From Pseudobdellovibrionaceae bacterium (GTDB lineage Bacteria; Bdellovibrionota; Bdellovibrionia; Bdellovibrionales; Bdellovibrionaceae): DNA of 20,115 nt. Below are positions 2,031-20,115 of the stretch, in pieces. Under the pieces are notes generated by a model that did no database searches, was not told the DNA's origin, and worked only from the letters and a program-made list of their open reading frames with translations. Where the stretch lies: contig JBDHWW010000051.1 of the NCBI GenBank assembly GCA_039810425.1, forward strand, positions 1-20,115, read 5' to 3'. The translations under genes were made by a program, and so were the position numbers. Every line of letters starts with the position of its first letter. Position 1 is the stretch's first letter.

Positions 2031-2911
2031 GTACCGCAAAAAAAATAGAGAACTCTACGTCATCGCAAAATGCATTTGACTACCAAGAGCTAGAGCTCGC
2101 ACCAAAGACCTATGAGCTCTTTGCGAAAAAAATGTATGAGATTGCCGGCGTGGACTTGCCATTTTCACCAAAGAACCATGCGCTTTTGCGGAACCGGCTG
2201 ATTAGAATTTTGCGCCGCCGGAGTTTAGATAGCTACGAGCAGTACTGGGATATTGTGAAAAATGGTTCTCCAGAAGTTATTTCTGAATTCGTTTCCGCTT
2301 TGACGACGAATATGACCTCTTTCTTTCGAGAGTCCGCGCATTTTGACTTTCTGGGAAAAATCCTGCCAGAAAAATTTGTGCAGTCTGAACTTCGAATTTG
2401 GTGTTGTGCGGCCAGCACCGGGCAAGAGCCCTATACCATTGCTATGACGGTTAAAGAAAGCTTGCCGGACGCCCAGGTAGCCCGTACCCGTATTCTTGCG
2501 ACGGACATCGATATGCAGGTTCTTAAGAAGGCTTCTATCGGGACCTATGAAGAAAAAGAAATGCAGGGTTTGTCTCCAGCCTTAAAACAAAAATATTTTA
2601 ATCGGGTCAAATTAAGGGACAAAAAAGGCAATGATGAGTTCTTTCAAGCCAGTGACGATATTCACAAGCTCATCCAGTTTGCGAATTTTAATCTTATGAA
2701 TGAGTCTTATGTATTTCAGAGCAAGTTTCACATCATCTTCTGTCGAAACGTTTTAATTTATTTCGATGAAGAAACGACAAAGCGTGTGATTGATAGTCTG
2801 ACACAGACATTGGCTCCGGGGGGATACCTTATTCTCGGCCATTCAGAATCTGGCAATGTCAAGCATCCCCATTTAAAGCCGCTTTCACGGGCGATTTATC
2901 AAAAGTTATAG
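2027..2911 (+). CDS. cheR: Chemotaxis protein-glutamate O-methyltransferase CheR
   Basis: Motifs LTTNMTSFFRE, RIWCCAASTGQEPYTIAM, ILATDID, IIFCRNVLIYF, GGYLILGHSES; ATGA overlap with the cheA stop. Confidence 0.97.
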   Translation: MSTAKKIENSTSSQNAFDYQELELAPKTYELFAKKMYEIAGVDLPFSPKNHALLRNRLIRILRRRSLDSYEQYWDIVKNGSPEVISEFVSALTTNMTSFFRESAHFDFLGKILPEKFVQSELRIWCCAASTGQEPYTIAMTVKESLPDAQVARTRILATDIDMQVLKKASIGTYEEKEMQGLSPALKQKYFNRVKLRDKKGNDEFFQASDDIHKLIQFANFNLMNESYVFQSKFHIIFCRNVLIYFDEETTKRVIDSLTQTLAPGGYLILGHSESGNVKHPHLKPLSRAIYQKL

Positions 2912-2918
2912 GTGCAAG

Positions 2919-3974
2919 ATGAGTAAAATTAAAGTTTTAATTGTTGATGATTCGGCCGTGATCCGCAGACTTTTAGAAAAGTTTCTCGCTTCCTCACCCG
3001 ACATCGAGGTGGTGGGCTCTGCGGCGGACCCCTACATCGCCCGCGATAAGCTTGTGCAACTAAAGCCGGATGTTATGACCTTAGACGTGGAAATGCCCCG
3101 CATGGACGGCATCAGCTTTCTTGAAAAAGTCATGCAGCATATGCCCACTCGAACAATTATTTTTTCGAGCCTTGCTAAGACGGGCTCGGAAACCTATTTC
3201 CGCGCTCTGGAGGCCGGTGCTATCGAGATTCTGGAAAAGCCGTCCATTGACGTCAGTCAATCGATGGAAACTCTTGCGGCCGAGATCGTTGAAAAAGTAA
3301 AAGTGGTCGCCAAAGCTCGTTTAAGTCCCATTAAAAAGATTGCGACTCCGAGCAGCGCCGTTCCTAAAATAGCAACGTCTTTAGCGCGCACGACGCATCA
3401 GTTGATCGCGGTGGCGTCTTCCACGGGTGGGACCGAGGCCTTGAAGGTTTTCCTTTCGGGGATGCCGGCGAATATTCCAGGAACTCTTATTGTGCAACAC
3501 ATGCCTCCGGGGTTTACGAAATCATTTGCGGAGAGTCTTAATAGAATGTTTCCCTTTGAAGTGAAGGAAGCCCAAGAGGGGGACCAAGTGGTTCCTGGCC
3601 GGGTGATCATTGCTCCGGGCAATTATCACATGGAGCTCTACCGCAGTGGTGCCTACTATCACGTCAAGCTTCATCAAGATGTTCCACTGCACAGTGTTCG
3701 CCCCGCTGCGGACTATTTGATGAAATCCGTTGCCAAGTACGTGGGTAAAAACGCCTGCGGTGTGGTGCTGACGGGTATGGGTAAAGACGGTGCAGACGGC
3801 TTACTTGAAATGAAAAAAGCCGGTGCATACTGTGTGGCTCAAAACGAAGAGACCTGTGTTGTCTACGGCATGCCTCAGGCAGCCTTCAATGTCGGCGCCA
3901 CCGACAAAATGTTACCCCTCGACAAAATCGCCGGCGACCTGCTTGCGAAAATCAATGCAAAGGAAGCGGCTTAG
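2919..3974 (+). CDS. cheB: Chemotaxis response-regulator methylesterase CheB
   Basis: Receiver domain (VLIVDDS, TLDVEMPRMDG, EKP) plus methylesterase triad motifs SSTGG, QHMP, LTGMGKDG and VVYGMP. Confidence 0.97.
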   Translation: MSKIKVLIVDDSAVIRRLLEKFLASSPDIEVVGSAADPYIARDKLVQLKPDVMTLDVEMPRMDGISFLEKVMQHMPTRTIIFSSLAKTGSETYFRALEAGAIEILEKPSIDVSQSMETLAAEIVEKVKVVAKARLSPIKKIATPSSAVPKIATSLARTTHQLIAVASSTGGTEALKVFLSGMPANIPGTLIVQHMPPGFTKSFAESLNRMFPFEVKEAQEGDQVVPGRVIIAPGNYHMELYRSGAYYHVKLHQDVPLHSVRPAADYLMKSVAKYVGKNACGVVLTGMGKDGADGLLEMKKAGAYCVAQNEETCVVYGMPQAAFNVGATDKMLPLDKIAGDLLAKINAKEAA

Positions 3975-7857: not shown

Positions 7858-9135
7858 CTAGTTGAGGATAGCCGCCTTTAGGTCCACGGCGAAGCGAGCG
7901 CCTTCTTTATACTGGTAATTAACATCACCAGAGAGGCGAACAGAGTTTTGATCCGGATTGTACAGCCAGCCGCCTTTGCCTTGTGGGATGATTTGGCCTT
8001 TGCCTAAAGCTAGGTCTTCGGGAGTTCCATAGCGAACGCGGATTTGAATCACGCCGTTTTCAACAACCGGTACACCACGAGTGAGGACGATCTCTTTAGC
8101 CAGCGTTCGGACTTTGATGTCTGCGCCGATATTTGCCAGGTCTGTACCGAAGTTACGGCTGATGATACTCATGATGTACTTGCCTTTGATCTGATCGTCG
8201 TTTGTGAGATCGGCACTTTTGTTAGCGTTTGCGATCAATTGCTCCAAACGCTTTGGGCCGAAACCAATCTGGCAACCAGGTTCGCTCTTATTTGTGATGC
8301 GTGCTGGAGTTTTCTTATTCATGTCATAGCACTCTGAGTGATATTTAGGTAAAATGCGAAGACCATAGTCTTTATATGAATCTGAGTCTTTCGCATTCAC
8401 AAGAACACCGTAAACCGAGTACTTGTCTTTACGGCCACCTTTAAAATCTAAAAGGCGACGATCCACTTCCTCAGGGGTGATACTGGCGCTGCCGTCATCT
8501 GCATCCGTTAAGAAGATCACAACAAGCTGAGCATCCGAACGGAAGAAACCGTCGTTCACCTGACCGTTGCCGGACTTATCAAGAGCGGCAAGAAGCGGAG
8601 AGAGAAACTCTTCATTTTCAGGGCCGCCCTCAGCAAGAGGGGCCACCCCGATATCAAGAGTCGAAGCCATCAAGTCTTTTTCCGTGCGGGTGACAAAACG
8701 TTTGTTGAAAGACTGATTCTTGCTGTCTTTGATAAAACGCAACTCACCGATGCCGTACTGGTCTTTCTTAGCTGTAGCAAAGCGCTCAGAGCTATCCCAA
8801 GTAGAAACAACACCGATGTGATAGTCGATCATTTTGTTACGAAGGATCCCATCCGAGAATTTATCCATATTGCGCACGAGGTTTGCTTGGGCCCCTTTCA
8901 TGCTGTCTGAGTTATCGGTGATGAACAAGATATCAACCTGCGGGTTGAAGTCGAGCTGGCTATTGCCACCGTCTTCCGTGATCCAAACCGCTTTTTGTTC
9001 CGCGATGCGGTCATAGGTCGGTGGAGCCGGTTGAGGCGTCGGTTGCTGAGCGGACATTGAAGCCGTTTCGGGACTGCAAGCCGCAAACAAAGAAGTTGCT
9101 AAGATGAGGCCACAGATTTTAAATGAAGTTTTCAC
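7858..9135 (-). CDS. vWA-domain lipoprotein (CglB-like candidate adhesin), last gene of the Agl/Glt-type operon
   Basis: Start re-assigned to GTG at 9135 (SD GGAGG at 9145-9141, GTGA overlap with upstream stop), giving signal peptide with lipobox LFAAC; MIDAS DxSxS in VDILFITDNSDS and later VIFLTDADD. Confidence 0.8.
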   Translation of the reverse strand: MKTSFKICGLILATSLFAACSPETASMSAQQPTPQPAPPTYDRIAEQKAVWITEDGGNSQLDFNPQVDILFITDNSDSMKGAQANLVRNMDKFSDGILRNKMIDYHIGVVSTWDSSERFATAKKDQYGIGELRFIKDSKNQSFNKRFVTRTEKDLMASTLDIGVAPLAEGGPENEEFLSPLLAALDKSGNGQVNDGFFRSDAQLVVIFLTDADDGSASITPEEVDRRLLDFKGGRKDKYSVYGVLVNAKDSDSYKDYGLRILPKYHSECYDMNKKTPARITNKSEPGCQIGFGPKRLEQLIANANKSADLTNDDQIKGKYIMSIISRNFGTDLANIGADIKVRTLAKEIVLTRGVPVVENGVIQIRVRYGTPEDLALGKGQIIPQGKGGWLYNPDQNSVRLSGDVNYQYKEGARFAVDLKAAILN

Positions 9136-10184
9136 ATCTTCCTCCGAATGTTCTGAGGGCATGCTTTCGTGCGTACTTGGTATTTATCGAGCTCGTCGAT
9201 CCAAGGGCGGCCATCATCAACAAACACGAGTTGGTCAGAGTTTGTTTCGCTAAAGTCACCTTTTTTGAAGAGCGCTTTATCCATTTCAACGTCCGCATGA
9301 AGTCTTTGGATGGCTTCCACTTCTACAAGATTTAATTTCTGAACGATTTTAAAATTGTCATTTGTTTCAAGAGTCGCTAATTGCTTCATGCGATTTTGCA
9401 ACTGAACTTGCGCCGTGGCGTTGGATTTCTTAAAAGACGCTTGAAGGCTTTCAGATTTACCCTCCGCTTTCAAAATCGCCAAAGCCTTTTCAGTGAGTTT
9501 CACTTTCATTAACTGGCGTTGGAATTCGATGTCTTTGTAGAAAAGCTGAGGCAAGTGGTTTGCGGCATCACCGACTTCAGAAAAAGTCAGAGGAAAAGTT
9601 TCAGTCGCCGCCATGACTTTTGCCATAGCGTCGTTCATGCCCGTCTGAGACAAGTTTTGGATCTCAACCAGCCGAGGCTTTTGTTTACCTTTGAAAAGCC
9701 TGTTTGTTTCGAAAACTTCTTTGTAGTTGCAAGTCTTCAGATGCGCCAAAGATTGTAAGAAATATGCTTCGGAACCTACGTAAGCTGCGAATTGTGGAGC
9801 CAAAAGGGTTTTGGTTTGACCCAAAGAAGCATCCAATTGATTTTGCCGGAAGTAAGTCCAAGCTTTCTCCTCAACGGCTTGCAGCCAGTAAGCACTGCCT
9901 TTAGCGACTTGGTCGTAAAGTGCGCGGGCTTCGCCGTATTGGCCTTTGGCGTAAACCTTACGGGCTTTTTCCATCAATGCTTTGTCCGCGCAATCGTTGC
10001 AAGCATAGAGGTATTTCTTGTCGAGTTTGCCGAAGTCCACCATCTGCAAGATCGCCGCAGTGTTTTTAGACTTCAAAGCTGCGGCGAAATCTTCGGACCA
10101 TTTCTGCACTGAAAGACGATCTTCAGCACGGGCGCCGATAGCAGCAAGGACTACTAAAGAGGCTAAGATCGACTTGATCATCAT
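9132..10184 (-). CDS. Secreted TPR protein, GltC-like
   Basis: Signal peptide ending ARA; TPR helices; EEKAWTYF...SLGQTKTLLAPQF...EAYFLQSLAHLKTCNY resembles the GltC pattern; start placed at ATG 10184 (ATGA overlap) rather than 10193. Confidence 0.7.
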   Translation of the reverse strand: MMIKSILASLVVLAAIGARAEDRLSVQKWSEDFAAALKSKNTAAILQMVDFGKLDKKYLYACNDCADKALMEKARKVYAKGQYGEARALYDQVAKGSAYWLQAVEEKAWTYFRQNQLDASLGQTKTLLAPQFAAYVGSEAYFLQSLAHLKTCNYKEVFETNRLFKGKQKPRLVEIQNLSQTGMNDAMAKVMAATETFPLTFSEVGDAANHLPQLFYKDIEFQRQLMKVKLTEKALAILKAEGKSESLQASFKKSNATAQVQLQNRMKQLATLETNDNFKIVQKLNLVEVEAIQRLHADVEMDKALFKKGDFSETNSDQLVFVDDGRPWIDELDKYQVRTKACPQNIRRKM

Positions 10185-10954
10185 AAGATCCATCCAAGGC
10201 CTACAGTGGCGGCGGCAGAGTTAATATCACGTGAGCCAGTCACGATTTGGTCTTTGTATGCTTGGTAACGGATTTCCGCACGGGCCGAAACGTGTTTTGT
10301 CATCCACAGGCCAAAACCAAGGCCGGCGGTTGCAAGACCGGTTGAACCGCTTTCGAGTTCGATTTGACCGCCACCCGCAAGCAAGTAGAAGTCGAATTGC
10401 GCGATGGCTTTATCGAAGAAATTGATTTTGCCGTAAACAGGATACCAGTTGATCACCGCCATTTTTGCATTCTGTGGTCTGTCGATATCTACGATTGTTG
10501 CGCGGTTACCGACGGCATAGTTTGCCAGCGCTTCATCCGTTGCTCGTTCGCCCTCAGGTGTCAGATTATTCTGATAGCTGTAGTAACGAGCCCCAATAGA
10601 CCAGCGTGGAGTGAAATGAAAGTCCAAGGTCGCACCGATATTTTGTGTTTGCAAGTACGTAGTCCCACCCATGACGCCGCCATAGTTCAGTCCCACTTCA
10701 AGGCGGTTGTGCCGGTCTACGATGCGATCTTGGACGATACGAGATTTAGTTTCTGGATTCAGCCTTTCAGACATCTCCAACAAAGCATCATTACCGCCAA
10801 GCCCGTCGACGTCTTTATTGAAGTCGATTTGCTTTGCTTGTTGCCGTTGAGGAGCAGGTGCCGTAGCTACTTTCTTAGCTGTTTTAGATGCAGCCACTGA
10901 CGACAAAGAAGCTAATAAGAGAGCACTGAGGGTTAAAGCCTTTAAGGTTTTCAT
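10181..10954 (-). CDS. Outer-membrane beta-barrel protein, GltA/GltB/GltH-type
   Basis: Signal peptide, IVQDRIVDRHNRLEVG lead-in, alternating amphipathic strands (DFHFTPRWSIGARY, WYPVYGKINFF, FDFYLLAGGG), terminal strand VGLGWIL; SD GGAGGT and TAATG overlap. Confidence 0.8.
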   Translation of the reverse strand: MKTLKALTLSALLLASLSSVAASKTAKKVATAPAPQRQQAKQIDFNKDVDGLGGNDALLEMSERLNPETKSRIVQDRIVDRHNRLEVGLNYGGVMGGTTYLQTQNIGATLDFHFTPRWSIGARYYSYQNNLTPEGERATDEALANYAVGNRATIVDIDRPQNAKMAVINWYPVYGKINFFDKAIAQFDFYLLAGGGQIELESGSTGLATAGLGFGLWMTKHVSARAEIRYQAYKDQIVTGSRDINSAAATVGLGWIL

Positions 10955-12027
10955 TATTTCTTACCTCCAGCTTTCTTGACACCTTGTGGTTTCTCGTCAG
11001 GCGGCGGTGGAGGTACTGGCGCTGCCGGAGCTTCCGGTGTTGGACGATTGATTTTTACGCGGATCATGGTGCTAGGGCTTGCGTTGAATGCGGAAGTCGC
11101 TCTCAAAGACAAACGAGTCTGAGTGAAGTAAACGTTTGCGATGGCGCCGTTTTTCATTTTTTGATTCTCTACGGGAGTGTTTTTGGTGTCGAAAACACGA
11201 TTAAATTTCCACTTGTAGTCACCGAGATATTCCAGAGAAGGACGGCTCGGGTCTTTAGAGACATAGCGCGCCCCATCCATTTCCATATAGTCGGAACCCG
11301 CGACCTGAGTCGTTTCATCTTCAGAAGGTGACAAGCTTGGTTTGACAACAGAATTCGCGTCCACGCCTGGAAATTTTACCGTGATCGAGAATGGAACCAC
11401 ATCGCCCTCTTTAACTTCTTTTTCCAAACCGGTGATGGTCAATTGAGAAGGTTTTTCCTGGTTCCTAAAGAGAGAAAAGAAAACGGTTTTTTCCAGAGAT
11501 AAACCTTTAACTGTGTTTACCTTTGCGGGTGTCTTAGCAGAGACAAGAACTGGAACCAAAGTCGTATTGTAGACTTTAGGAGGTTGTTCATCGTAAGAGA
11601 TTGTGTTTGTGGCCGGGGTCCAGCGAAGCTCATAGGTGTTAGGAGATTGAGCCGTTGAAATTTCACGGAATTCAGCGCCCGCCGGAAGGCCTTTTGCAGT
11701 TAGCTTCATCTGGATGTCAGGGTCTTGAACGCGGAGAGTGATTTTGTAGGAAGTCTGTTGGCCTTCATAGAAAGCCATCATCTTATCGCCCAAGTCGATT
11801 TTGAAATAGTTGTCATTCAAAGTCGCTTGTTCTTGGATGACGGGGTTGTCTTTAGTGACATAGACGATCTTTTCAGGAACTGGTACGGGACCAGTTTGAG
11901 TTTGTTGTTTTGCTGAGTCACGAATTTCTTTGATTTTAGACTCTTGAGAATCGCTGAACTTGTTGCCGCCGCAAGCTGCAAGCATCAAACTCGCTGTCAT
12001 TAGAGTATAAGATAATACGTTCTTCAT
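10954..12027 (-). CDS. Lipoprotein of unknown function with Ig-like/cadherin-like beta-sandwich segments
   Basis: Lipobox LAAC; LTAKGLPAGAEF...YELRWTP is typical of putative-Ig repeats; Pro-rich ends; SD AAGGAG. Confidence 0.65.
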   Translation of the reverse strand: MKNVLSYTLMTASLMLAACGGNKFSDSQESKIKEIRDSAKQQTQTGPVPVPEKIVYVTKDNPVIQEQATLNDNYFKIDLGDKMMAFYEGQQTSYKITLRVQDPDIQMKLTAKGLPAGAEFREISTAQSPNTYELRWTPATNTISYDEQPPKVYNTTLVPVLVSAKTPAKVNTVKGLSLEKTVFFSLFRNQEKPSQLTITGLEKEVKEGDVVPFSITVKFPGVDANSVVKPSLSPSEDETTQVAGSDYMEMDGARYVSKDPSRPSLEYLGDYKWKFNRVFDTKNTPVENQKMKNGAIANVYFTQTRLSLRATSAFNASPSTMIRVKINRPTPEAPAAPVPPPPPDEKPQGVKKAGGKK

Positions 12028-12037
12028 AAAACTCTCC

Positions 12038-13279
12038 TTATCGACTGCTCACGCGTGTCAAGTTGAACGGGTAGAGGACGTCGACATTGACCTTTCCTAC
12101 AGGTTTAGGAAACTGCCATGTTCTCATTTTATCTAGCATGCAATTTTCAACGAGTTTTGAACCGAGGGAAGACTGAGCAACTTTGGCAACGGTGATTCTT
12201 CCAGCGGGGCCGATCGTGAAATCAACGGCGACACGCCCGCCAATCGAAGGTTGCGCCTGCAATCCTTTTTCATAGCAGTAAGTGATTTGACCTAAGTGTT
12301 TGTTAATCACGGCGAGAATTTGGTCTTGATCCAATCCACCTTCGACTGTGGCTTCGTCGTCCAGCGGTAAGCTGATGGGGGCCATGCCGCCAACCATTGA
12401 GATCTTACCGTAACCAGCACGGCCGCCACCCGTACCACGGGTGCCATAACCTCCAGCGCTTTCCGCGCGGCCCCCTTCGCCAGCACTTCCGGCGATGAGG
12501 CCGTTACCCGGCATAAGACCTTTAACACCACCGCGGCCAGTTGCACCGACACCGCCGCCACCTTGGCCTTGGCCAGCTGAGCGGATATTTTTCATCGAGT
12601 TCAGATCCAAGCCTTCCGCTGACTTATTGCCTTTTGGAATGCCACCTAACGCGGCCAATGCGCCGACGCGGTGAATGTCAGTGGCTTTTGCAGTTTTCAC
12701 TTTATAAGGCTTAGAAAGTAGTTTTTTGGTTGCTACCGGACGGTAAACTTTGTGCGTCGGCTTAATTTTCTTTTCAGAAACTTTCACGTGCGGAGCAGGC
12801 GCCAGCTTTTCTACAACCGGTGTCTCCTGTTTAGGAACGACGATTGTTACCAGCGTTGGCTCTGCGGGCTTTTGCGAGAAGTACTTTGCAGAAATCCATG
12901 CGCCCAAAATCAAAACTAAAACGATGGCGATGTGGCCGATCATTGTTTTTTCGAGGATCGTTTTAAGTTCCTTGTCGTCTTGTTCTTTAGTGAGTTGATA
13001 ATCCGGGCTATTGACGGCCGCGTCGTCCATCAAACGAAGTTGTCCCAGGCCAGAGAGCTTTACTGGTTTCTCAAGATCAGAGATCGCCAGTGTTTTTAAA
13101 AGCGTGTATTCAAGGTCATTTTCCTCGAGAATTTTAAGGTTTGCCACAGCATCAATGCGGCGCTGATCTTTCAAGAAGACGATATTCATTGAGCGTGAGT
13201 CCACCGCAAAGGTTCTCACCTTTTGGCCCAGCATGTTCTCCAGGATCAGCAGTTGTGTAGTTTTCTTCGCAGTGCGCAT
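12038..13279 (-). CDS. GltG-like inner-membrane protein with AgmX/PglI (TonB-like) C-terminal domain
   Basis: One TM helix (HIAIVLVLILGAWI), Lys/Pro-rich then Gly-rich linker, C-terminal GGLDQDQILAVINKH...YCYEKGL...GRVAVDFTI...CML...WQFPKP...YPFNL. Confidence 0.85.
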   Translation of the reverse strand: MRTAKKTTQLLILENMLGQKVRTFAVDSRSMNIVFLKDQRRIDAVANLKILEENDLEYTLLKTLAISDLEKPVKLSGLGQLRLMDDAAVNSPDYQLTKEQDDKELKTILEKTMIGHIAIVLVLILGAWISAKYFSQKPAEPTLVTIVVPKQETPVVEKLAPAPHVKVSEKKIKPTHKVYRPVATKKLLSKPYKVKTAKATDIHRVGALAALGGIPKGNKSAEGLDLNSMKNIRSAGQGQGGGGVGATGRGGVKGLMPGNGLIAGSAGEGGRAESAGGYGTRGTGGGRAGYGKISMVGGMAPISLPLDDEATVEGGLDQDQILAVINKHLGQITYCYEKGLQAQPSIGGRVAVDFTIGPAGRITVAKVAQSSLGSKLVENCMLDKMRTWQFPKPVGKVNVDVLYPFNLTRVSSR

Positions 13280-13291
13280 GACTTTACGTCC

Positions 13292-13594
13292 TTAGTTTCT
13301 TTCGGTTTCTCTTTGGCGGCGATCCTCAAACTGAGTTCGGCCACCTAAGAGATCTTCCATAAATTTATCGTTTTCGACCGTCGCTGTAGAGCTCAAGGAA
13401 CTCTGGTACTTACCGCGAAGGTTGGAACCACTGAACTTAAACGAGGTTCCGAGCTTGGCTTGCGGGGTCGAGGTCCTCTTTGTTGCCGCCTTCTTGGCAG
13501 CCGCTCTTTTATGTGCCGCGCCTGTTTCAGCGTGGGCTCCATTTGCAGTCAACATACAGAGCAAGATCAGGGCCAGAGTTTTTGAATTTTTCAT
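13292..13594 (-). CDS. Small secreted protein, GltF/CglF-like
   Basis: Signal peptide ending AHA; about 100 aa; FKFSGSNLRGKY...LLGGRTQFEDR; located directly upstream of the GltG-like gene; ATGA overlap. Confidence 0.6.
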   Translation of the reverse strand: MKNSKTLALILLCMLTANGAHAETGAAHKRAAAKKAATKRTSTPQAKLGTSFKFSGSNLRGKYQSSLSSTATVENDKFMEDLLGGRTQFEDRRQRETERN

Positions 13595-16557
13595 AGGCTT
13601 TTTCCTCTCTGAATGCGGCTTAAACGGGCTTCCAAGTATGAAGGCATCAGGGGGTGACCGATTTTCGTCTCTAGGTTTTTCAATTTTTCAATATCACTTA
13701 TATTATCAGGGTTTTGCGCGACGGTTTTACGTGCAGATACCAAGTCCTCCCAGCTTAAGGAGCCGTCGTTCAAAGCTTTCTCGACCGCGCTGTGGTTGCG
13801 GCTACTGTTAGGCAAAGCGGCCAGCAAGTTCATCTCGCGGCGGAGAAGTTTCTTAAGTTCAGGGCGAACTGTGGAAAAATCGGCGAGCAGTTGTGGAATC
13901 GCTGGAGATCGTTCCCAGATCTCGGACTCACGTTGTTGTGAGAACTTCGCCTTCACAAAGTAAGGTTTTGATCGTTGCTTCAAGATATCGAGGTATTGCT
14001 TTTGTTCCGCAGGAGTGAGCTTTTTAGGAATCGGCAATGCGACAAGGTCACGGACCATGCGCTCGTTCTCCATAGAAACCACGTTCAATGCCAATAATTG
14101 AGCTGTCACGTCTTTGAACTTCAAACTTTCAGCCAGCTTTTTGTCGGCTTCTTTCAAGAGCTTGATACGTTCTTTGATTGTTCTCTGCATTGCAGAGTCT
14201 GTTTTAACGTTCAATTGATGACGGGCCATACGCGCTTTAAAAGAGACAACCTCAGAGTAGAAATCCTGTTTCGCAATGAAGTTCGGGGCGGATTGGCGAC
14301 GGAGTTCCTTTATAGAGAGAACCGACTTCAAACTTTTTTTATCACCCGTGCGGGCGTAAACTAACAACGTGATTTCGTTTAAAACACCTGCGTCTTTAGC
14401 CAATTCAGGAGCTTGTGTTTTCAACTCACGAACTGGGTTCGAAGAGAGCAAGACCAAGCGTGATCTCACAGAACGAGCACCTTGACCTTGAAGGCCAGAA
14501 GCCAAGGCCTTCTTATAGTGGCCAGTGGGGTCCAAGTTTGCGAGATCTGCAAGTGTACCCAGGCGCAACTCCTTGTCGGCAGACTTCAGGCCTTTGAACT
14601 TCATTTTCAAAGCCGTGAGGTAGGCGTTTTTGAAATCTAATTTTTTTTCATGGTAAGCGACGATTTTACGGAGGCTTTCCTCGCGACGCTCTTCAGACAA
14701 GCCCGGTTGAGCCAGCAGAGACTGCAATGAGCGAACATAGACGCCATCGTCAGTCAAGCGTTGCGCCACAATACTCATGTTTGTATAGAGCAAAGTCTTT
14801 TCGGCAGTCGTCGCGCCAGTCATATTTACTTTTTGCATTTGATCTAAAGACTTGCTGAGTTCCGAGTTGCTGGCATTTTTGTCGTTTGCAATACGCGCAA
14901 CACGGTTCATCAAGGCTTTACGAGCCATTGTTGAATACTCCGTGCGGTCCGCCGGGAACGCCTCAGCATATTGCCAAGCCCAGTCTTCGACGCTGTCTTC
15001 GTATTTCATTTGTACTAAGCAGTCTAATGAAAGGTCTGCGGACTTCTTACGGAGATTCGCAGGACCGGATTTATCCATCGCCAGGGCATAGAAGGCTTGG
15101 GACGCATCACGGTGATTTTTCTGTTGATATGTCAGGTACGCCATTTGGTAACGAACTTCAAAGCTCTTATCGCCTTTTGGCGATACCTCGAGGTAATGTT
15201 CGTAAGCAGCTTTCTGCAATACGGGATTCTGAGATTTTTCAGCTGTTGAAATCTCGCTGAGCAACGCAGTCTTCTGCAATTCAGGCTTCGTTTCTTTGTT
15301 GTTACTCACGGAACGGAAGAATTGCATTGCGACGGCATGTTTTCCCATATTATCCGCAACTTGGGCTCCACGCTGGGCCATCTCGGTATCATTCGGGAAT
15401 GTCTTGCTATAGATGAGGTAAGCATTCAGCAAATCCGCATCAGGTTTGATTTTTTTTGAACGATGCAGCTCCGTCACATAACGCTTCATTGTTTTTTCGA
15501 GTTCTTGGCACTTCGAAATGTCTTTGCAGTTCTTTTGGTATTCCTGAGCGGCTTTGGCGAAGTCTTGGGTCGATTTGCTCGTTTCGCCGCCATCGTAGTT
15601 CACTTGCGCCAGCTTCACAAAAGCGGCAAGACGTTCTTCTTGAGTCAGAGTCGTATCTTCCAAGTAGCGGTTATAGATTGTTGCCGCAGCCTTCTTCTGG
15701 CCGAGACGATCCGCCTCAGAAGCAAAATGCAGCAGCAAGTCTTTACGGCTCGCTTTTGGTGAGAAGTCTTCGTAGTTTGCAATCTCTTTATCAGTGACGG
15801 GACGGCGGGCATAGAATGTCGCCAAGTCTTTGACGATATCGTTATGGAAAACTGGGTCGTACTTGATGCCTTCGTTGTTTTCGCGAACGATGAGCTCTGG
15901 CATTTTTAAAAGGCTTTCCATGGTCGCGATACCAGCATTGAGTTGATCCAGATTTAGTTGGCACCAGGCTTTGTTATAGATCACCAAGCCACGGCCTTCG
16001 AGGTTTTTATCTTTAAGAGCGACTTCATAGTGCGCCAGAGCGTCTTTGTATTTCGCTTTTTGGAAAAGCAGATCGCCAAGGCTGGAATGAGAGCGAGCGA
16101 CGATCTCTCCGGATATTTTTTTGGATTTAGCTTCTTTCAAGATGCGCTCATAAAGAGAGATCGCTTTGTCCGACTGGCCCGCCATTTCTTGCAAGTGCGC
16201 TAGCTGGAACAAGATCGGGCCGTGGTCGTTTAGTTTTACCTCTTTAAGAAGAACTTCATAGATTGCAACAGCTTTCAGGCGATCGGCTTTTGAGCCCTTG
16301 CAGCCTTCACAATTAGCTTCAACTTCTTGCATAAAACGCAAGCGGGCGCGCTCAGAGAGCAAGTCTGCGAGGCGTTGCTCCGTTGGCAACCAAGAAGCAT
16401 CCGTTTTGTCCATCGCAGAGAGGACGCGTTCAATTCTTTCGATAACCATGTCCTGGGTTTGCGCATTCATTTTTTCAGCGTTGGCCACAGAAAAGGCCCC
16501 CAGGAAGATACCGCCAAAGACTGCACTAAAAATAAGAAGATGGTTTAAAGTTTTCAT
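13591..16557 (-). CDS. Large periplasmic TPR protein, GltD/AgmU-like
   Basis: Signal peptide ending ANA; many TPR units (ILFQLAHLQE, SLGDLLFQKAKYKDALAHYE, YNKAWCQLNL, YQMAYLTYQ); 988 aa; ATGA overlaps at both ends. Confidence 0.8.
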   Translation of the reverse strand: MKTLNHLLIFSAVFGGIFLGAFSVANAEKMNAQTQDMVIERIERVLSAMDKTDASWLPTEQRLADLLSERARLRFMQEVEANCEGCKGSKADRLKAVAIYEVLLKEVKLNDHGPILFQLAHLQEMAGQSDKAISLYERILKEAKSKKISGEIVARSHSSLGDLLFQKAKYKDALAHYEVALKDKNLEGRGLVIYNKAWCQLNLDQLNAGIATMESLLKMPELIVRENNEGIKYDPVFHNDIVKDLATFYARRPVTDKEIANYEDFSPKASRKDLLLHFASEADRLGQKKAAATIYNRYLEDTTLTQEERLAAFVKLAQVNYDGGETSKSTQDFAKAAQEYQKNCKDISKCQELEKTMKRYVTELHRSKKIKPDADLLNAYLIYSKTFPNDTEMAQRGAQVADNMGKHAVAMQFFRSVSNNKETKPELQKTALLSEISTAEKSQNPVLQKAAYEHYLEVSPKGDKSFEVRYQMAYLTYQQKNHRDASQAFYALAMDKSGPANLRKKSADLSLDCLVQMKYEDSVEDWAWQYAEAFPADRTEYSTMARKALMNRVARIANDKNASNSELSKSLDQMQKVNMTGATTAEKTLLYTNMSIVAQRLTDDGVYVRSLQSLLAQPGLSEERREESLRKIVAYHEKKLDFKNAYLTALKMKFKGLKSADKELRLGTLADLANLDPTGHYKKALASGLQGQGARSVRSRLVLLSSNPVRELKTQAPELAKDAGVLNEITLLVYARTGDKKSLKSVLSIKELRRQSAPNFIAKQDFYSEVVSFKARMARHQLNVKTDSAMQRTIKERIKLLKEADKKLAESLKFKDVTAQLLALNVVSMENERMVRDLVALPIPKKLTPAEQKQYLDILKQRSKPYFVKAKFSQQRESEIWERSPAIPQLLADFSTVRPELKKLLRREMNLLAALPNSSRNHSAVEKALNDGSLSWEDLVSARKTVAQNPDNISDIEKLKNLETKIGHPLMPSYLEARLSRIQRGKSL

Positions 16558-17036
16558 TTTATGGGAATTACCGCAAAGCGGAGTTTTTCAATGCCGGCCT
16601 CGGAACCAGCTCTCAAGAGAGGATCGAGATCTGCGTATTCCATGTTCGTGTCGGCTTGAACTAAAAGCTCCAAAGCCTCTGCCGTCGATTTTTTAAGTTC
16701 TGCAAGTTTTGCCGATAGTGAAGTAAGAGCCACGGGTCTTTCGTTCAAGAAGTATTGGCCCTTCTCGATTTTGAGAGTCGCAATTTCTTTTTCGAGTGCC
16801 TGGCTGTGTTCCGCCGTCGGCAGGCTCATTTGCCCGGGAATTTTACTTTCAACACCAGTGGTTTGTGTCCCGATGAGGAGATAAATCACGATAATACAGA
16901 ATGCATCGATCAACGAAGTCAAAGGCAGCGCAAGGCCCAGTTCTTTGCCGTGTGTGGCGTTCTTCTTGTTTTTTTTCAACGACATCGCTTGCATGAGTGG
17001 CGACCGACGTTGTGTGATGAATGTACCTGTATTCAT
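16554..17036 (-). CDS. aglS: ExbD/TolR-family motor subunit, AglS-like
   Basis: TM helix with conserved Asp (LPLTSLIDAFCIIVIYLL); periplasmic LLVQADTNMEY...AGIEKLRFAV. Symbol assigned by order and similarity; may be a paralogue. Confidence 0.8.
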   Translation of the reverse strand: MNTGTFITQRRSPLMQAMSLKKNKKNATHGKELGLALPLTSLIDAFCIIVIYLLIGTQTTGVESKIPGQMSLPTAEHSQALEKEIATLKIEKGQYFLNERPVALTSLSAKLAELKKSTAEALELLVQADTNMEYADLDPLLRAGSEAGIEKLRFAVIPIK

Positions 17037-17042
17037 AAAATC

Positions 17043-17501
17043 CTACCCAAGTGGGGACAAGCCCACTCCGTCGAATTGATTTTTCTTAAGTTGATCCATA
17101 ATACGGATCACATCGCCATAGGAGGCGCGCGCCTCTGGGCGCACGATGCTGGTTTTAAGCTCAGGCACTTGGGCGCGGAATGCTTGGATCTTAGCCTCCA
17201 GCGCTGCCCAGTTCACACCGGTTGCCGTTTTCGTGATCGTGTCTTCCAAGTTTTTGGTTTGCAAATTATTGGTTTGAGGTATGTCACGCAGAGAAAGTTG
17301 AACATTACCTTCTTTCGTTAAAACAACCCAGAGCGCCGGAGGATTTCTTTGTCCGGCCGTGGAATTGTCACCGATGGCTTGTTTCGTATCGATCGACCCG
17401 AGTTGCAGCCAAACTGCGGTGAGCAGCAAGAAGCAAATCAGAACCGAAAGAATATCGAGAACGGGTAAAATGTTTAGTTCAAAGTTAAGTTCTTTTTTCA
17501 T
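17043..17501 (-). CDS. aglQ: ExbD/TolR-family motor subunit, AglQ-like
   Basis: TM helix with conserved Asp (LNILPVLDILSVLICFLLLTAVW); YGDVIRIMD. Start placed at ATG 17501 because GGAG lies 6 nt upstream (ORF track start 17513). Confidence 0.8.
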   Translation of the reverse strand: MKKELNFELNILPVLDILSVLICFLLLTAVWLQLGSIDTKQAIGDNSTAGQRNPPALWVVLTKEGNVQLSLRDIPQTNNLQTKNLEDTITKTATGVNWAALEAKIQAFRAQVPELKTSIVRPEARASYGDVIRIMDQLKKNQFDGVGLSPLG

Positions 17502-17546
17502 ACCGGACTCCATGCCATTAACGTGAAAGAGAGAGTCGTTGCTTAT

Positions 17547-18221
17547 TTAGTTCTTTGATTTCTTGTCTGAGACTGGGGAGTAGTGAAAGCCCAACTGAAT
17601 GAAAAGATTCAAAGCGGCTTTGTTTAGATCCTCAGTCAAACGAGTCGCGCGGTTTTGCAAAACGGCGTACATGATCAAAGCAGGGACTGCGACGAGCAAA
17701 CCATAAGCGGTTGTGTTCATTGCCAGGGAGATACCTGATGATAGGATCGTTGCTTTTTCAGCGGCATTGGCGTTTGAAATACCGGCGAATGAGTGAATCA
17801 AGCCCGTGATAGTTCCTAGGAGGCCCATCAGGGTTGCAACGTTGGCGAACATGGCCAAGAAGCCGATGCGTTTTTCTACGCGAGAGGTTTCTTCGAGAAG
17901 AATTTCGTCCATCTTGAGTTGGATCTCTTCTTTGCCGCCCATATCGATGGCAGCTTGGATGCCGGCAGCAGCAACCACGCCGAGGGGCTCTGTTTGGCCG
18001 AGTTGTTGAGATCTACGAAGGGCTTTTTCGAGATTACCGGCTTTGATATCATCGGCAATGACCTTAGAAAGGGCTTTTTGGTTGTCTTTGCGATTCATGA
18101 AAAGAGCGACAGCTCTTTCGATGATAATTGCGATGGACACAACCTGAGCGGCTAAGATAGCCCACATCCAGATAGCGTCAGATGATGTAAACGCGCGACC
18201 GAGTGATAAAAAGAATTCCAT
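17547..18221 (-). CDS. aglR: MotA/TolQ/ExbB-family proton-channel subunit, AglR-like
   Basis: Three TM helices; IIIERA, ANVATLMGLLGTITGLI, GISLAMNTTAYGLLVAVPA; SD GGAGG at 18232-18228. Confidence 0.9.
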   Translation of the reverse strand: MEFFLSLGRAFTSSDAIWMWAILAAQVVSIAIIIERAVALFMNRKDNQKALSKVIADDIKAGNLEKALRRSQQLGQTEPLGVVAAAGIQAAIDMGGKEEIQLKMDEILLEETSRVEKRIGFLAMFANVATLMGLLGTITGLIHSFAGISNANAAEKATILSSGISLAMNTTAYGLLVAVPALIMYAVLQNRATRLTEDLNKAALNLFIQLGFHYSPVSDKKSKN

Positions 18222-18258
18222 TGTAATCCTCCATTACGTTCCTCAACAGCAGGGGTAA

Positions 18259-18275
18259 AGCAACGGAGGTGCCAG
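18259..18275 (-). promoter_or_regulatory. Sigma54 (-24/-12) promoter of the Agl/Glt-type operon
   Basis: Minus strand CTGGCAC-CTCCG-TTGCT matches TGGCAC-N5-TTGC(A/T) with correct spacing, 37 nt upstream of the aglR start. Confidence 0.85.
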
Positions 18276-18332
18276 CCCTAGAATCGTGTATAGAGAGCCT
18301 GACTGCACAATTTAGCCTTGAGAGCACCCAAG

Positions 18333-18347
18333 TGCCGCAAAAAGGCA
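18333..18347. promoter_or_regulatory. Palindrome TGCC-N7-GGCA; candidate enhancer-binding-protein site
   Basis: TGCC GCAAAAA GGCA, about 85-100 nt upstream of the inferred sigma54 start site. Confidence 0.35.
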
Positions 18348-18378
18348 GCCACCGTACTGGATTTGGTCACCGGGGGGA

Positions 18379-19275
18379 TTAAAAGAGGAAGAAGTCTAAG
18401 TCTTTTAGGTTTGTATCTGTATTTTCCAAAAGGCATCGCCAGATTGTTGCGTACTTACTCCAAGGGCCTACAATCTCTGTGTCAACAATTAACTGGGGTC
18501 TGTAGAGTTTCAGACGAGGTTTTCTTGATATTTTACCTTCAAATGAGGATCGACCTCTGCCAGATGAAAAATACATTAATCTTTTGTCAGAGATATCTTT
18601 GATATTGTTAATATCTAACCCATTTTTAAAAGTGTTTACCAAAGCTCTAGAATTTCGGTCCATTTCAATCATGGCTTTGTCAATACTTTTCTCAACAGAA
18701 GAACTCGAGGCAAAGCCATAGGTATAAAAAGACTTATCAGCAAGTTCTTCAATCTTTTTTGATAGAAGGGTTACTTTTACATTATCAAAAGGTGTTTGAA
18801 TCTCCCATGTTTGAAAGTGTAAGCAACTAGCAATTTCTTTCGCTTGAAGATTTCCATTCCACCAATTTGATATAGCCCATCTTTCTACGGCCTCTCTAAA
18901 GGCCTGAGTTCTAACTGCATTCTTGGGCCAGCAAGGAAGCGCTGCAAAACCGGTTGAAGTATCGTCAACGTCGAGGCCATATTGGCTTGAGCCCTGTGAA
19001 ACCAGAGTATAGAAAGCCCATCGCTCTAATGATTCGGAAATACTTTTTCTTACAGCGTCGATTTTAGCAGAGGCTGTCCCAGTGCCGTCGCAAGATCCAT
19101 AAATTTTGGAACTAGCGATTTGATTGTTACGTAAAGCAGGTTTTAGATAGGCATGAGCTTCAAATTGTTTGTGGCCAATCGTATCGATAATTTCGAAAAG
19201 CTCTATTTTATCGATTGGCCCATGGCTATTTGTTATATCTCTAAAAAGGAAGGGAGCTAAGTTTAAAAAAAACAC
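18379..19275 (-). CDS. Compact YcaO-family protein (ATP-dependent peptide-backbone activating enzyme)
   Basis: YcaO ATP/Mg motifs in order: DGTG...AVRKSISESLERW; STGFAA...AFREAVERW; YGFA...SIDKAMIEM. GTG start immediately after the upstream TAA. Confidence 0.75.
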   Translation of the reverse strand: MFFLNLAPFLFRDITNSHGPIDKIELFEIIDTIGHKQFEAHAYLKPALRNNQIASSKIYGSCDGTGTASAKIDAVRKSISESLERWAFYTLVSQGSSQYGLDVDDTSTGFAALPCWPKNAVRTQAFREAVERWAISNWWNGNLQAKEIASCLHFQTWEIQTPFDNVKVTLLSKKIEELADKSFYTYGFASSSSVEKSIDKAMIEMDRNSRALVNTFKNGLDINNIKDISDKRLMYFSSGRGRSSFEGKISRKPRLKLYRPQLIVDTEIVGPWSKYATIWRCLLENTDTNLKDLDFFLF

Positions 19276-20038
19276 TTACTTTGTTTCCACCCACTGTAGG
19301 TCTAGTGGTGGCAAAATTGAGTTATAGCTTTTAAGGCTAACGCGTGATGATTTTTTAATCCAAAGTCCCAGCGCCATATGGTTTATCGGCCATATAATAG
19401 CTTGGTCCCAAAGCATTTCATTTACTTTTTGGACATCGAAATCATCTGTTTGAACGAATTTTTTTATCTCTCCTGTCTCGTCAGGAAGTTTAATTCCATG
19501 CTCAGAAAGAAGCATAAATTGAATATCATGTCTCGGACTATCAACCAAAATTGCGGACATACGGAATCTGATGTCCAAATTACCAGCAAAAAGATTGTTT
19601 GGTGGCGGGTTAAAAATATCCAATTTTAGATTAACTCGTCGGGAAATTTTTTGAAAGCTGTCTACGAATGCCTGTTGGCTTGTTAGTTTATTTTGGTTTT
19701 CACTACTTTTTGGAGAAAGTGGCGCTTGATTAATAACCAAAGACTTATCATTTAGGAATTTTTCATCCGCGGTAGAAGGTGCAGTAGCCTCTTTTACTCC
19801 TTTAATCGCTAGTGGCAAAAAGGAGTAAGTTAGAGAGTGAGTTTTTTTAAACTCAGTATAAAAAGCGTTCCTAAGTTCTATACGCGTATTTTTATTTGCA
19901 CACAGGCTCCCGGCCTTGTTCCAGCCATCGCATTCAACGTATCTAATCGCTGACTTAACGGGGCCGTGAAATTCATAGTTTTCCGTTACTGCTAGCGAGT
20001 CGTCAAAATCTATAATGATATCTGATCCAGAAATATCA
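19276..20038 (-). pseudogene. 5'-truncated gene, probably a family-5 (OppA/DppA-like) solute-binding protein, interrupted by an IS
   Basis: The frame of ORF 19276..19818 stays open upstream (..DISGSDIIIDFDDSLAVTENYEFHGPVKSAIRYVECDGW..) to a TAG at 20097-20095 with no ATG/GTG/TTG and no signal peptide; C-terminus VNEMLWDQAIIWPINH...GLW resembles the end of family-5 SBPs. Confidence 0.5.
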
Positions 20039-20115
20039 GGAGATGTCTCATTTTTAGTTGAAAGTCGGGAGCCGCTTTCGTGAAGTGAGCCCGACTATGC
20101 CGCCTTTTTGATTTT
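20039..20115 (-). mobile_element. Right end of an insertion sequence, IS256-like (transposase C-terminus plus terminal inverted repeat)
   Basis: Minus strand reads AAA ATC AAA AAG GCG GCA TAG (KIKKAA*), then a hairpin with arms AGTCGGG/CCCGACT (20063-20096), then TTTCAACTAAAAATGAGACATCTCC, resembling IS256-family ends; GC rises abruptly; only 77 nt visible. Confidence 0.55.

What the first reader, a model, noticed from the sequence alone, without database searches (positions are those of the whole stretch)
18379..19275. Unusually small YcaO enzyme without the PxP tail or visible partners: candidate new RiPP/peptide-modification system
Seen: 298-aa ORF with the three Glu-containing YcaO ATP-binding motifs, only about 20 residues between the first SExxER motif and the STG motif, and a C-terminus ..DLDFFLF rather than a Pro-rich PxP end. 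Known: azoline-forming YcaOs usually end in PxP and pair with an E1/ThiF-like protein; thioamide-forming ones often pair with TfuA; amidine-forming ones lack PxP; characterised YcaOs are generally larger. Inference: a minimal, divergent clade with unknown chemistry or substrate in a predator-like genome. No precursor peptide, TfuA, E1-like or dehydrogenase gene is in the window; they may lie beyond the IS.
Basis: partly seen in the sequence, partly recalled or inferred. Interest (0 to 1): 0.72.

Follow-up and report, generated by a model that had tools for sequence, protein, structure and literature searches.

The report
Mini-YcaO peptide signal with sensor kinase
This unusually small YcaO enzyme gene belongs to a conserved cassette with a predicted secreted peptide, a peptide-binding-type protein and a sensor kinase, which likely makes and senses a chemically modified peptide signal in Gram-negative bacteria; in this strain an insertion sequence has split the binding-protein gene.

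Summary
The ORF is real (minus strand, 298 aa) and is a YcaO: predicted fold matches McbD at Z 17.9, and the ATP/Mg motifs are nearly invariant in 146 relatives. It ends F-x-F, never PxP, but its last residue aligns with McbD's catalytic last residue. Its partners lie beyond the IS on contig C10, joined by a unique 8-bp target duplication and by synteny: a divergent histidine kinase, an 83-aa signal-peptide precursor with three G-N-W repeats, and an oligopeptide-binding-type protein split by the IS. In related Bdellovibrionota and Verrucomicrobiota loci a precursor-like ORF occurs in 81 of 95 (control 15 of 206) and an adjacent kinase in 67 of 70 (control 1 of 107). One strain pair has an identical YcaO but a swapped precursor and kinase sensor domain, an agr-like pattern. 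Best reading: an undescribed modified-peptide signalling circuit, with the chemistry untested (Asn likeliest here, Cys in Verrucomicrobiota). Ten literature searches found no description. This scan noted the same cassette before on other genomes.

The parts
18379..19275 (-). Minimal YcaO, 298 aa; ATP/Mg motifs at residues 63-66, 80-85, 106-112, 128-132, 200-208; C-terminal F-x-F in place of PxP; no predicted transmembrane segment
19276..20038 (-). 3' half of an oligopeptide-binding-type (SBP_bac_5) gene, directly abutting the YcaO start. The 5' half is at C10:79747-80500. The two halves sum to 1509 nt in frame (502 aa), like intact relatives
20031..20038 (.). 8-bp target-site duplication of the IS; pairs only with the right end of contig C10
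20039..20115 (.). End of a multi-copy IS of about 1.44 kb. Beyond it, outside the window on C10: precursor gene C10:79479-79730(+), 83 aa with signal peptide and three G-N-W repeats; histidine kinase C10:78237-79394(-), 385 aa, two predicted TM helices
17547..18221 (-). motA/exbB-family gene flanking the island; the site just upstream of it is empty in two congeners and holds different mini-YcaO cassettes in three others

Best explanation
The YcaO is likely the signal-making enzyme of a peptide-pheromone circuit: it would use ATP to cyclodehydrate a short motif near the end of the neighbouring precursor, which is predicted to be exported by its signal peptide and likely sensed through the binding protein and the adjacent histidine kinase. 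Shown: gene layout, its conservation, fold, motif conservation, and co-swapping of precursor and kinase sensor domain in one strain pair. Inferred, in order: (1) YcaO binds the precursor in the cytoplasm and O-phosphorylates a backbone amide after attack by a neighbouring side chain, with the C-terminal Phe carboxylate placed where McbD's Pro396 acts as base. (2) In this clade the target is the repeated (S/T)-G-N-W motif. Attack by the Asn side-chain nitrogen (six-membered cyclic amidine, -18 Da) is my first choice, about 0.4; a Ser/Thr oxazoline about 0.3; other chemistry about 0.3. In Verrucomicrobiota a thiazoline at Pro-Cys is likely. (3) Sec export and signal-peptide removal; further trimming is unknown. 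(4) In Bdellovibrionota the membrane-anchored binding protein presents the peptide to a kinase with a small periplasmic domain; in Verrucomicrobiota a hybrid kinase with a large propeller-type sensor region binds it without a binding protein. (5) The output regulator is unlinked in this clade. In this strain the IS has split the binding protein and may also silence the coupled YcaO, so the circuit is probably broken here.
For: Fold: Z 17.9 to McbD (rmsd 3.8, 259 aligned, model 18-298 to chain 10-396), 16.9 to a cyanobactin heterocyclase (4v1t), next non-YcaO 6.2. G66, E81, G109, E131, E204, R207 in 146 of 146; F-x-[FW] end in 141 of 146, PxP in 0. Precursor-like ORF in 81 of 95 loci with enough upstream DNA against 15 of 206 control genes; adjacent kinase in 67 of 70 against 1 of 107. 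New loci with predictions fixed beforehand: precursor-like ORF 10 of 14, kinase 8 of 11. Repeated cores: 13 repeats in 6 precursors of the nearest clade, W 13, N 12, G 12, S/T before the G position 10. Asn in the last 18 residues in 22 of 22 (13.9 expected) and 10 of 10 new ones. Pro-Cys in 42 of 61 Verrucomicrobiota-group precursors, shuffle mean 9.9. L045 vs L047: identical YcaO, flanks 98.5% and 94.9% DNA identity, kinase catalytic part 98%, sensor part 43%, precursor C-part 30%. In all 135 pairs with YcaO identity of 70% or more but one, the sensor part is less conserved than the catalytic part, apart from one tie (pairs are not independent). The binding protein's best solved relatives are oligopeptide-binding proteins. 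Complex prediction of YcaO with precursor 19-83: weak support, score 0.58, best control 0.00; the mark was reached by 116 of 157 solved complexes and 2 of 215 mismatches, but at 0.60 or under by only 18 of the 157 and by both mismatches; contacts agree at least 47%, partner pLDDT at least 38.
Against: No experiment; the product, reaction and ligand are all inferred. Motifs were picked on the same data that were then shuffled, and kin are not independent. Out of sample they were only borderline: small-small-Asn 5 of 10 vs 2.5, p about 0.05; [ST]GN 2 of 10 vs 0.4, p about 0.06; and 2 of those 10 ORFs look like false detector hits. Six loci (L041, L063, L065, L125, L131, L134) with enough upstream DNA gave no precursor even on a looser look. 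L032's precursor has neither Cys nor Asn in its repeats. Cores differ between branches (G-N-W, Pro-Cys, [AST][ST]QD), so one chemistry may not cover all. Sensor domains generally evolve faster than catalytic ones (recalled), so only the L045/L047 pair is a clean swap. This genome's kinase has no receiver domain and no regulator beside it. A feedback promoter was not found: sigma-54-like motif 0 of 93 upstream of precursors. A cytoplasmic enzyme must act before Sec export, which is untested. Nickel/metallophore-binding proteins also match the binding-protein profile.
Confidence: 0.63

Rival explanations
1. Same circuit, but the YcaO does not cyclise a side chain: it acts as an ATP-dependent site-specific peptidase that releases the signal, or adds an outside nucleophile (ammonia or sulfide) at the conserved amide.
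For: MusD cleaves a peptide bond ATP-dependently (PMC10885120, passage) and is the best, weak, profile hit among solved structures (E=0.031). Stand-alone E. coli YcaO thioamidates uL16 (PMC13063428, abstract and introduction). A YcaO-TfuA pair thioamidates an Asn backbone (PMC13174530, passages). No dedicated protease is a constant part of the cassette.
Against: The near-constant Cys after Pro in Verrucomicrobiota (56 of 61 with Cys) and [AST][ST]QD in 8 of 8 of a second branch fit azoline formation. The C-terminus is fixed at the McbD Pro396 position. TfuA was not found in the genome.
Confidence: 0.14
2. The modified peptide is a private periplasmic reporter or small metal chelator. The binding protein and kinase read envelope state or metal load, not cell density.
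For: SBP_bac_5 also contains nickel/metallophore binders. Cys-x-x-Cys occurs in some precursors (14 of the 56 with Cys have a second Cys three residues on). No outer-membrane exporter is a constant neighbour.
Against: Swapping of precursor with kinase sensor between near-identical strains and four different cassettes at one site in one genus are expected of identity signals, not of a fixed chelator. G-N-W cores have no obvious metal ligands.
Confidence: 0.13
3. The peptide is an antibacterial or kin-discriminating RiPP, and the kinase and binding protein provide autoinduction or immunity.
For: Azoline RiPPs made by related folds include antibiotics (PMC7136475, passages). The cassette is patchy (42 of 401 genomes of the phylum) and sits on a low-GC island (0.36-0.39 against 0.48).
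Against: No exporter, permease, dehydrogenase or immunity family recurs among 65 of 99 neighbours scanned. Cores are short and carry few modifiable residues.
Confidence: 0.06
4. The YcaO modifies a folded protein (the binding protein, the kinase or a housekeeping protein), and the small ORF is an accessory subunit rather than a substrate.
For: Stand-alone YcaOs that modify folded proteins exist (PMC13063428).
Against: Tandem repetition of a short motif within precursors (three copies here, five in L114, two in L115, L079 and L032) is typical of multi-core substrates. The C-terminal part varies fastest.
Confidence: 0.04

Closest known systems
Azoline-forming YcaO cyclodehydratases (McbD of microcin B17, 6gos; cyanobactin heterocyclase 4v1t; TruD)
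   Same: Fold (Z 17.9 and 16.9); ExxER, S/T-x-G and K/R-x3-E motifs align with MusD/TruD; last residue aligns with McbD residue 396, whose free carboxyl-bearing Pro is the proposed base (PMC6395948, passages).
   Different: About 100 residues shorter than McbD, 10-13% identity, F-x-F instead of PxP, no E1/RRE partner or dehydrogenase, precursor with a signal peptide, sensor genes instead of an exporter.
Stand-alone YcaOs (bottromycin enzymes; E. coli YcaO on uL16; methanogen YcaOs 6ci7/6pe3; MusD)
   Same: No fused or adjacent E1 partner; fold Z 12.4-15.6 to the solved E. coli and methanogen enzymes.
   Different: Smaller; fixed aromatic C-terminus; coupled to a secreted-type precursor, a binding protein and a kinase; TIGR00702 matched by only 6 and TIGR03266 by 1 of 146 members at E<=0.01.
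agr (AgrBDCA) and ComQXPA peptide quorum sensing of Firmicutes
   Same: Modifying enzyme + short precursor + histidine kinase in one locus; precursor C-part and receptor sensor domain vary together (PMC12312760, PMC4008528, passages; here).
   Different: No AgrB or ComQ; the modifier is a YcaO and stays unchanged when the peptide swaps; signal-peptide export; diderm hosts (comQXPA-like loci were found only in Firmicutes, PMC4008528); kinase divergent; regulator unlinked in this clade.
Binding-protein-dependent kinases such as LuxP-LuxQ (recalled; also named in earlier scan notes)
   Same: A transporter-less periplasmic binding protein beside a kinase with a small periplasmic domain.
   Different: The binding protein is of the oligopeptide-binding family with an N-terminal membrane anchor, and its likely ligand is encoded in the same operon.

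Membership tests
YcaO superfamily (PF02624) | YcaO fold | tested here: met
   Model pLDDT 91; five YcaO chains are the only hits with Z of 8 or more among 48,161; Foldseek E 2.7e-6
YcaO superfamily (PF02624) | ATP/Mg-binding Glu/Arg/Ser motifs | tested here: met
   Conserved in 141-146 of 146; aligned to MusD, TruD and M. kandleri YcaO motifs
YcaO superfamily (PF02624) | Score above the Pfam gathering cut-off | tested here: inconclusive
   24.1 vs 25.7 bits for this protein; 130 of 146 relatives at E<=0.01, best 2.6e-20
YcaO superfamily (PF02624) | ATP-dependent backbone amide activation | not testable with these tools
   Needs an assay
TOMM/LAP azoline-forming D proteins | C-terminal PxP motif | tested here: not met
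   0 of 146; F-x-[FW] in 141
TOMM/LAP azoline-forming D proteins | E1-like/RRE partner and flavin dehydrogenase in the cluster | tested here: not met
   None among 65 of 99 neighbours; TIGR03605 not found in this genome; one ThiF gene on an unlinked contig; no longer fused forms found, weak evidence
TOMM/LAP azoline-forming D proteins | TIGR03604 above cut-off | tested here: not met
   15 bits vs 219; 110 of 146 match only weakly, best E 3.4e-16
YcaO-TfuA thioamide systems | TfuA partner | tested here: not met
   PF07812 not found in a 99.88% complete genome or among neighbours scanned
agr / ComQXPA autoinducing-peptide systems | AgrB protease or ComQ prenyltransferase beside the precursor | tested here: not met
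   The cassette genes are YcaO, SBP_bac_5 and kinase; neither family among neighbours scanned
agr / ComQXPA autoinducing-peptide systems | Precursor linked to a histidine kinase, with co-variable peptide and sensor domain | tested here: met
   67 of 70 vs 1 of 107; L045/L047 swap
agr / ComQXPA autoinducing-peptide systems | Cognate response regulator in the locus | tested here: inconclusive
   Absent here; receiver fused to the kinase in the two Verrucomicrobiota kinases scanned; NtrC-like regulator upstream in the distant branch
agr / ComQXPA autoinducing-peptide systems | Peptide activates its kinase in trans, density-dependently | not testable with these tools
   Needs an experiment
Oligopeptide ABC importers (Opp/Dpp) | Permease and ATPase genes with the binding protein | tested here: not met
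   No permease family among the 65 of 99 neighbours scanned or flanking the binding protein; one unscanned ABC ATPase pair lies about 3 kb away in L022

The most novel reading that the evidence does not exclude
A widespread, allele-specific (pherotype) peptide quorum-sensing system of Gram-negative bacteria, including predatory Bdellovibrionota, in which one minimal partner-free YcaO family with an F-x-F catalytic tail writes different heterocycles on Sec-exported peptides: an Asn-derived cyclic amidine in the G-N-W clade and thiazolines in Verrucomicrobiota.
Probability: 0.3. Interest if true: 0.92.

Novelty: new variant of a known kind. Interest (0 to 1): 0.76.

Why it matters
Kinase-sensed modified-peptide pheromones are described as a Gram-positive trait (PMC12312760, PMC4008528, passages). 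If right, this cassette is an unrelated third design beside agr and ComQXP, in two or more diderm phyla, and offers a first handle on how predatory bacteria recognise kin or count themselves. Chemically it is a 298-aa partner-free YcaO that standard mining misses, with a new catalytic tail and natural substrate variants. The enzyme-precursor pair and a natural allele pair (L045/L047) make both the chemistry and the specificity directly testable in E. coli or in vitro.

Tried and rejected
Single-sequence PDB search found no YcaO; the profile search gave only weak hits. Contigs C8, C80 and C87 share the IS end but are not the continuation: no binding-protein half and no matching duplication. The first neighbourhood clustering was swamped by spurious ORFs in GC-rich loci and was replaced by profile-based calls. 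Sigma-54-like promoter upstream of precursors: 0 of 93. The promoter/terminator scan of 18150-20115 was at chance level. A link to conjugative elements, claimed in earlier scan notes for the sigma-54 branch: no conjugation, relaxase or integrase family among 65 of 99 neighbours, but flanks were only 2-10 kb. Search for longer fused forms: none, weak evidence. No RNA holder listed; the laid contigs say nothing on expression, and other runs covered only short pieces. The Atlas gave no answer. Three papers were not held (Dunbar 2014, Pei 2025, Burkhart 2017), so the Asn-to-pyrimidone precedent is recalled; I saw only its title in a reference list, the word 'spyrimidone' and 'nucleobase-like modifications'. 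No supplements were read; large YcaO network tables in supplements could list this clade. Literature searches that found no description of the cassette: (listings and abstract starts only, unless cited as read).

Full report
1. Observation. The ORF is at 18379-19275 on the minus strand, 298 aa, GTG start right after the upstream stop. Nineteen relatives at 34-71% identity were found, 18 of them full length. Pfam YcaO scores just below its cut-off and a genome scan with that model misses the gene. An AlphaFold2 model (pLDDT 91) matches McbD at Z 17.9 (rmsd 3.8, 259 aligned), a cyanobactin heterocyclase at 16.9, and the methanogen and E. coli YcaOs at 12.4-15.6; the next hit is 6.2 (Foldseek agrees).

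2. The family. A profile search found 799 clusters at E<=0.001 and 299 at 1e-30. In 146 aligned members (282-330 aa) the ATP/Mg residues are 97-100% conserved, 141 end in F-x-[FW] and none in PxP. The structural alignment runs to residue 298 against McbD residue 396 and 4v1t residue 775 (only range ends are shown, and I could not inspect coordinates). McbD Pro396, with its free carboxyl, is the proposed general base (PMC6395948, passages), and a catalytic role for the YcaO C-terminal carboxylate is suggested in a daptide preprint. I infer that F-x-F replaces PxP and keeps the terminal carboxylate in place. The family was found in 42 of 401 sampled genomes of this phylum, 44 of 182 of this family at a looser threshold, and in many Verrucomicrobiota (146 loci, best 80 kept).

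3. The rest of the locus. The window is all of contig C51 and ends in a 77-bp repeat shared with three other contig ends. Relatives' upstream genes hit both the window's right end and the end of C10. Each IS end pairs with exactly one partner by an 8-bp duplication (C51-C10 end, C8-C10 start, C87-C13), and the two binding-protein halves sum to 502 codons in frame. A 1,439-bp multi-copy contig in run X1, which may be the source of this DNA, matches both ends. The IS family was not tested; size and duplication recall IS256. Synteny agrees independently: in G079 and G082 the gene found at C10:71815-72360 lies directly upstream of the motA-like gene that follows the YcaO here. The cassette is therefore: kinase (385 aa, HisKA and HATPase, two TM helices, no receiver), divergent from an 83-aa precursor, then binding protein, then YcaO, at GC 0.36-0.39 against 0.48. 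The precursor has a signal-type N-terminus and three G-N-W repeats.

4. Conservation. I scored 111 loci (80, 20, 13, two duplicates dropped). A fixed detector found a signal-peptide small ORF upstream in 81 of 95 loci with 600 nt available, against 15 of 206 control genes; an adjacent kinase was present in 67 of 70 loci with both flanks, against 1 of 107. Eight of the 14 misses had a clear precursor on a looser look, six did not. On 20 further loci, 5 dropped as duplicates, with predictions noted first, the counts were 10 of 14 and 8 of 11; two of the ten look spurious. Bdellovibrionota loci mostly carry the binding protein; the Verrucomicrobiota loci lack it and have large hybrid kinases. Two distant branches add an NtrC-like or other upstream regulator and place the kinase downstream. 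On a FastTree of 109 rows the 64 Verrucomicrobiota rows lie on one side of a branch; long branches make deeper order unreliable. Among 65 of 99 neighbour proteins scanned there was no E1/ThiF, TfuA, RiPP dehydrogenase, permease or conjugation family. The binding-protein profile best matches OppA/MppA/DppE structures, with nickel binders lower.

5. Substrate motifs. These sets include 11 precursors added by hand and one. Verrucomicrobiota group: Cys in 56 of 61, Pro-Cys 42 of 61 (shuffle 9.9). Distant branch: [AST][ST]QD 8 of 8 (0.1). This branch: [ST]GN 12 of 22 (1.5), small-small-Asn 19 of 22 (8.7), Asn in the last 18 residues 22 of 22 (13.9 expected). In the nearest six precursors, 13 repeats have W 13, N 12, G 12 and S/T before the G position in 10. 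Out of sample Asn was in the tail of 10 of 10 and S/T/C of 8 of 10, but motif enrichment was only borderline. So Asn is the more constant residue, while an oxazoline at the preceding Ser/Thr is not excluded. These motifs were chosen after seeing the data and kin inflate the counts. I had raised the Asn idea in my notes before reading an earlier scan note with the same idea; the extra tests followed that note. A complex prediction gave weak support only: 0.58 against 0.00 for the best control; 116 of 157 solved complexes and 2 of 215 mismatches reach the mark, but at 0.60 or under only 18 of the 157 and both mismatches; contact agreement at least 47%, partner pLDDT at least 38.

6. Evidence for a peptide-receptor pair. 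L045 and L047 encode identical YcaOs and are 98.5% and 94.9% identical on the two flanks, but a block of about 2.1 kb holding the precursor and the kinase sensor region is replaced: 30-56% identity over the first 600 kinase residues, 96-100% after residue 700. This is the pattern of the agr and comQXP variable regions (PMC12312760, PMC4008528, passages), except that the modifying enzyme does not change. Within this genus the site upstream of motA is empty in G079 and G082, has other cargo in G083, and holds different mini-YcaO cassettes in G080, G081 (37% identity to this YcaO, inverted layout) and G084.

7. Mechanism and rivals. Best reading (0.63): the YcaO cyclodehydrates the motif, the peptide leaves by Sec, and binding protein plus kinase sense it. 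Rivals: peptidase or outside-nucleophile chemistry (0.14), private periplasmic or metal reporter (0.13), antibacterial RiPP (0.06), protein-modifying YcaO (0.04). Against the best reading: no assay, no linked regulator here, no feedback promoter found, differing cores, and the timing problem of a cytoplasmic enzyme with a Sec substrate. In this strain the circuit is probably disabled by the IS; the clean frame and intact duplication suggest a recent insertion.

8. Known and new. It is a YcaO by fold and motifs but fails the defining tests for TOMM/LAP, YcaO-TfuA, agr, ComQXPA and Opp importers. It works most like agr/ComQXPA, with a LuxP/Q-like receptor (recalled). Ten searches found no description; most subscription papers and all supplements were outside my view. 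This scan's own unchecked notes describe the same kind of cassette in at least ten other windows; that is not independent support. What this locus adds: the reconstruction across the IS, the multi-repeat G-N-W core, controlled and out-of-sample counts, the Verrucomicrobiota Pro-Cys branch, and the allele swap. Verdict: new variant of a known kind of system, interest 0.76.

Noticed in passing
G000:C10:72403-77724 (L081:1829-7150); L173:5409-10305; L174:7091-11931: Three genes travel with the cassettes at this site in three congeners: a membrane protein of about 660 aa with a weak nucleotide-cyclase-like stretch and HEAT repeats (24% identity between genomes), a secreted-type protein of about 600 aa with no Pfam match, and a trypsin-like protease. 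They are candidate outputs or a processing protease.
   Followed up: partly
L003-L012, L017-L019 (just upstream of the YcaO): One Opitutaceae branch has two tandem signal-peptide ORFs: the first with a Pro/Ser/Ala-Cys core, the second with the same N-terminus but usually no Cys. It could be an unmodified decoy or antagonist.
   Followed up: no
L173:2260-3273: A distant mini-YcaO at the same site ends in a His-Pro-containing tail, a possible remnant of the PxP end; it scores well above the Pfam cut-off.
   Followed up: partly
L021:821-10516; L116: Several binding-protein copies without their own YcaO lie near one cassette, suggesting extra receptors for other alleles.
   Followed up: no
L032:9809-9979: Precursor with a twice-repeated acidic motif lacking Cys and Asn; a useful exception for testing the chemistry.
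   Followed up: no
window 7858-18221: Long minus-strand operon headed by MotA/ExbB and two ExbD genes, then a TPR-like 988-aa protein and a TonB-like protein; it resembles the gliding/Tol-type operons of Bdellovibrio (recalled; Pfam for the first three).
   Followed up: no
window 93-3974: Chemotaxis-type cheA, cheR, cheB-like genes by sequence inspection; not scanned.
   Followed up: no
G000 contigs C78, C86, C88, C94-C95 and many under 5 kb: Many small contigs have GC of 0.57-0.74 against 0.49 for the genome and are probably contamination of the bin. C80 ends in an FtsH-like gene cut by another copy of the IS.
   Followed up: no
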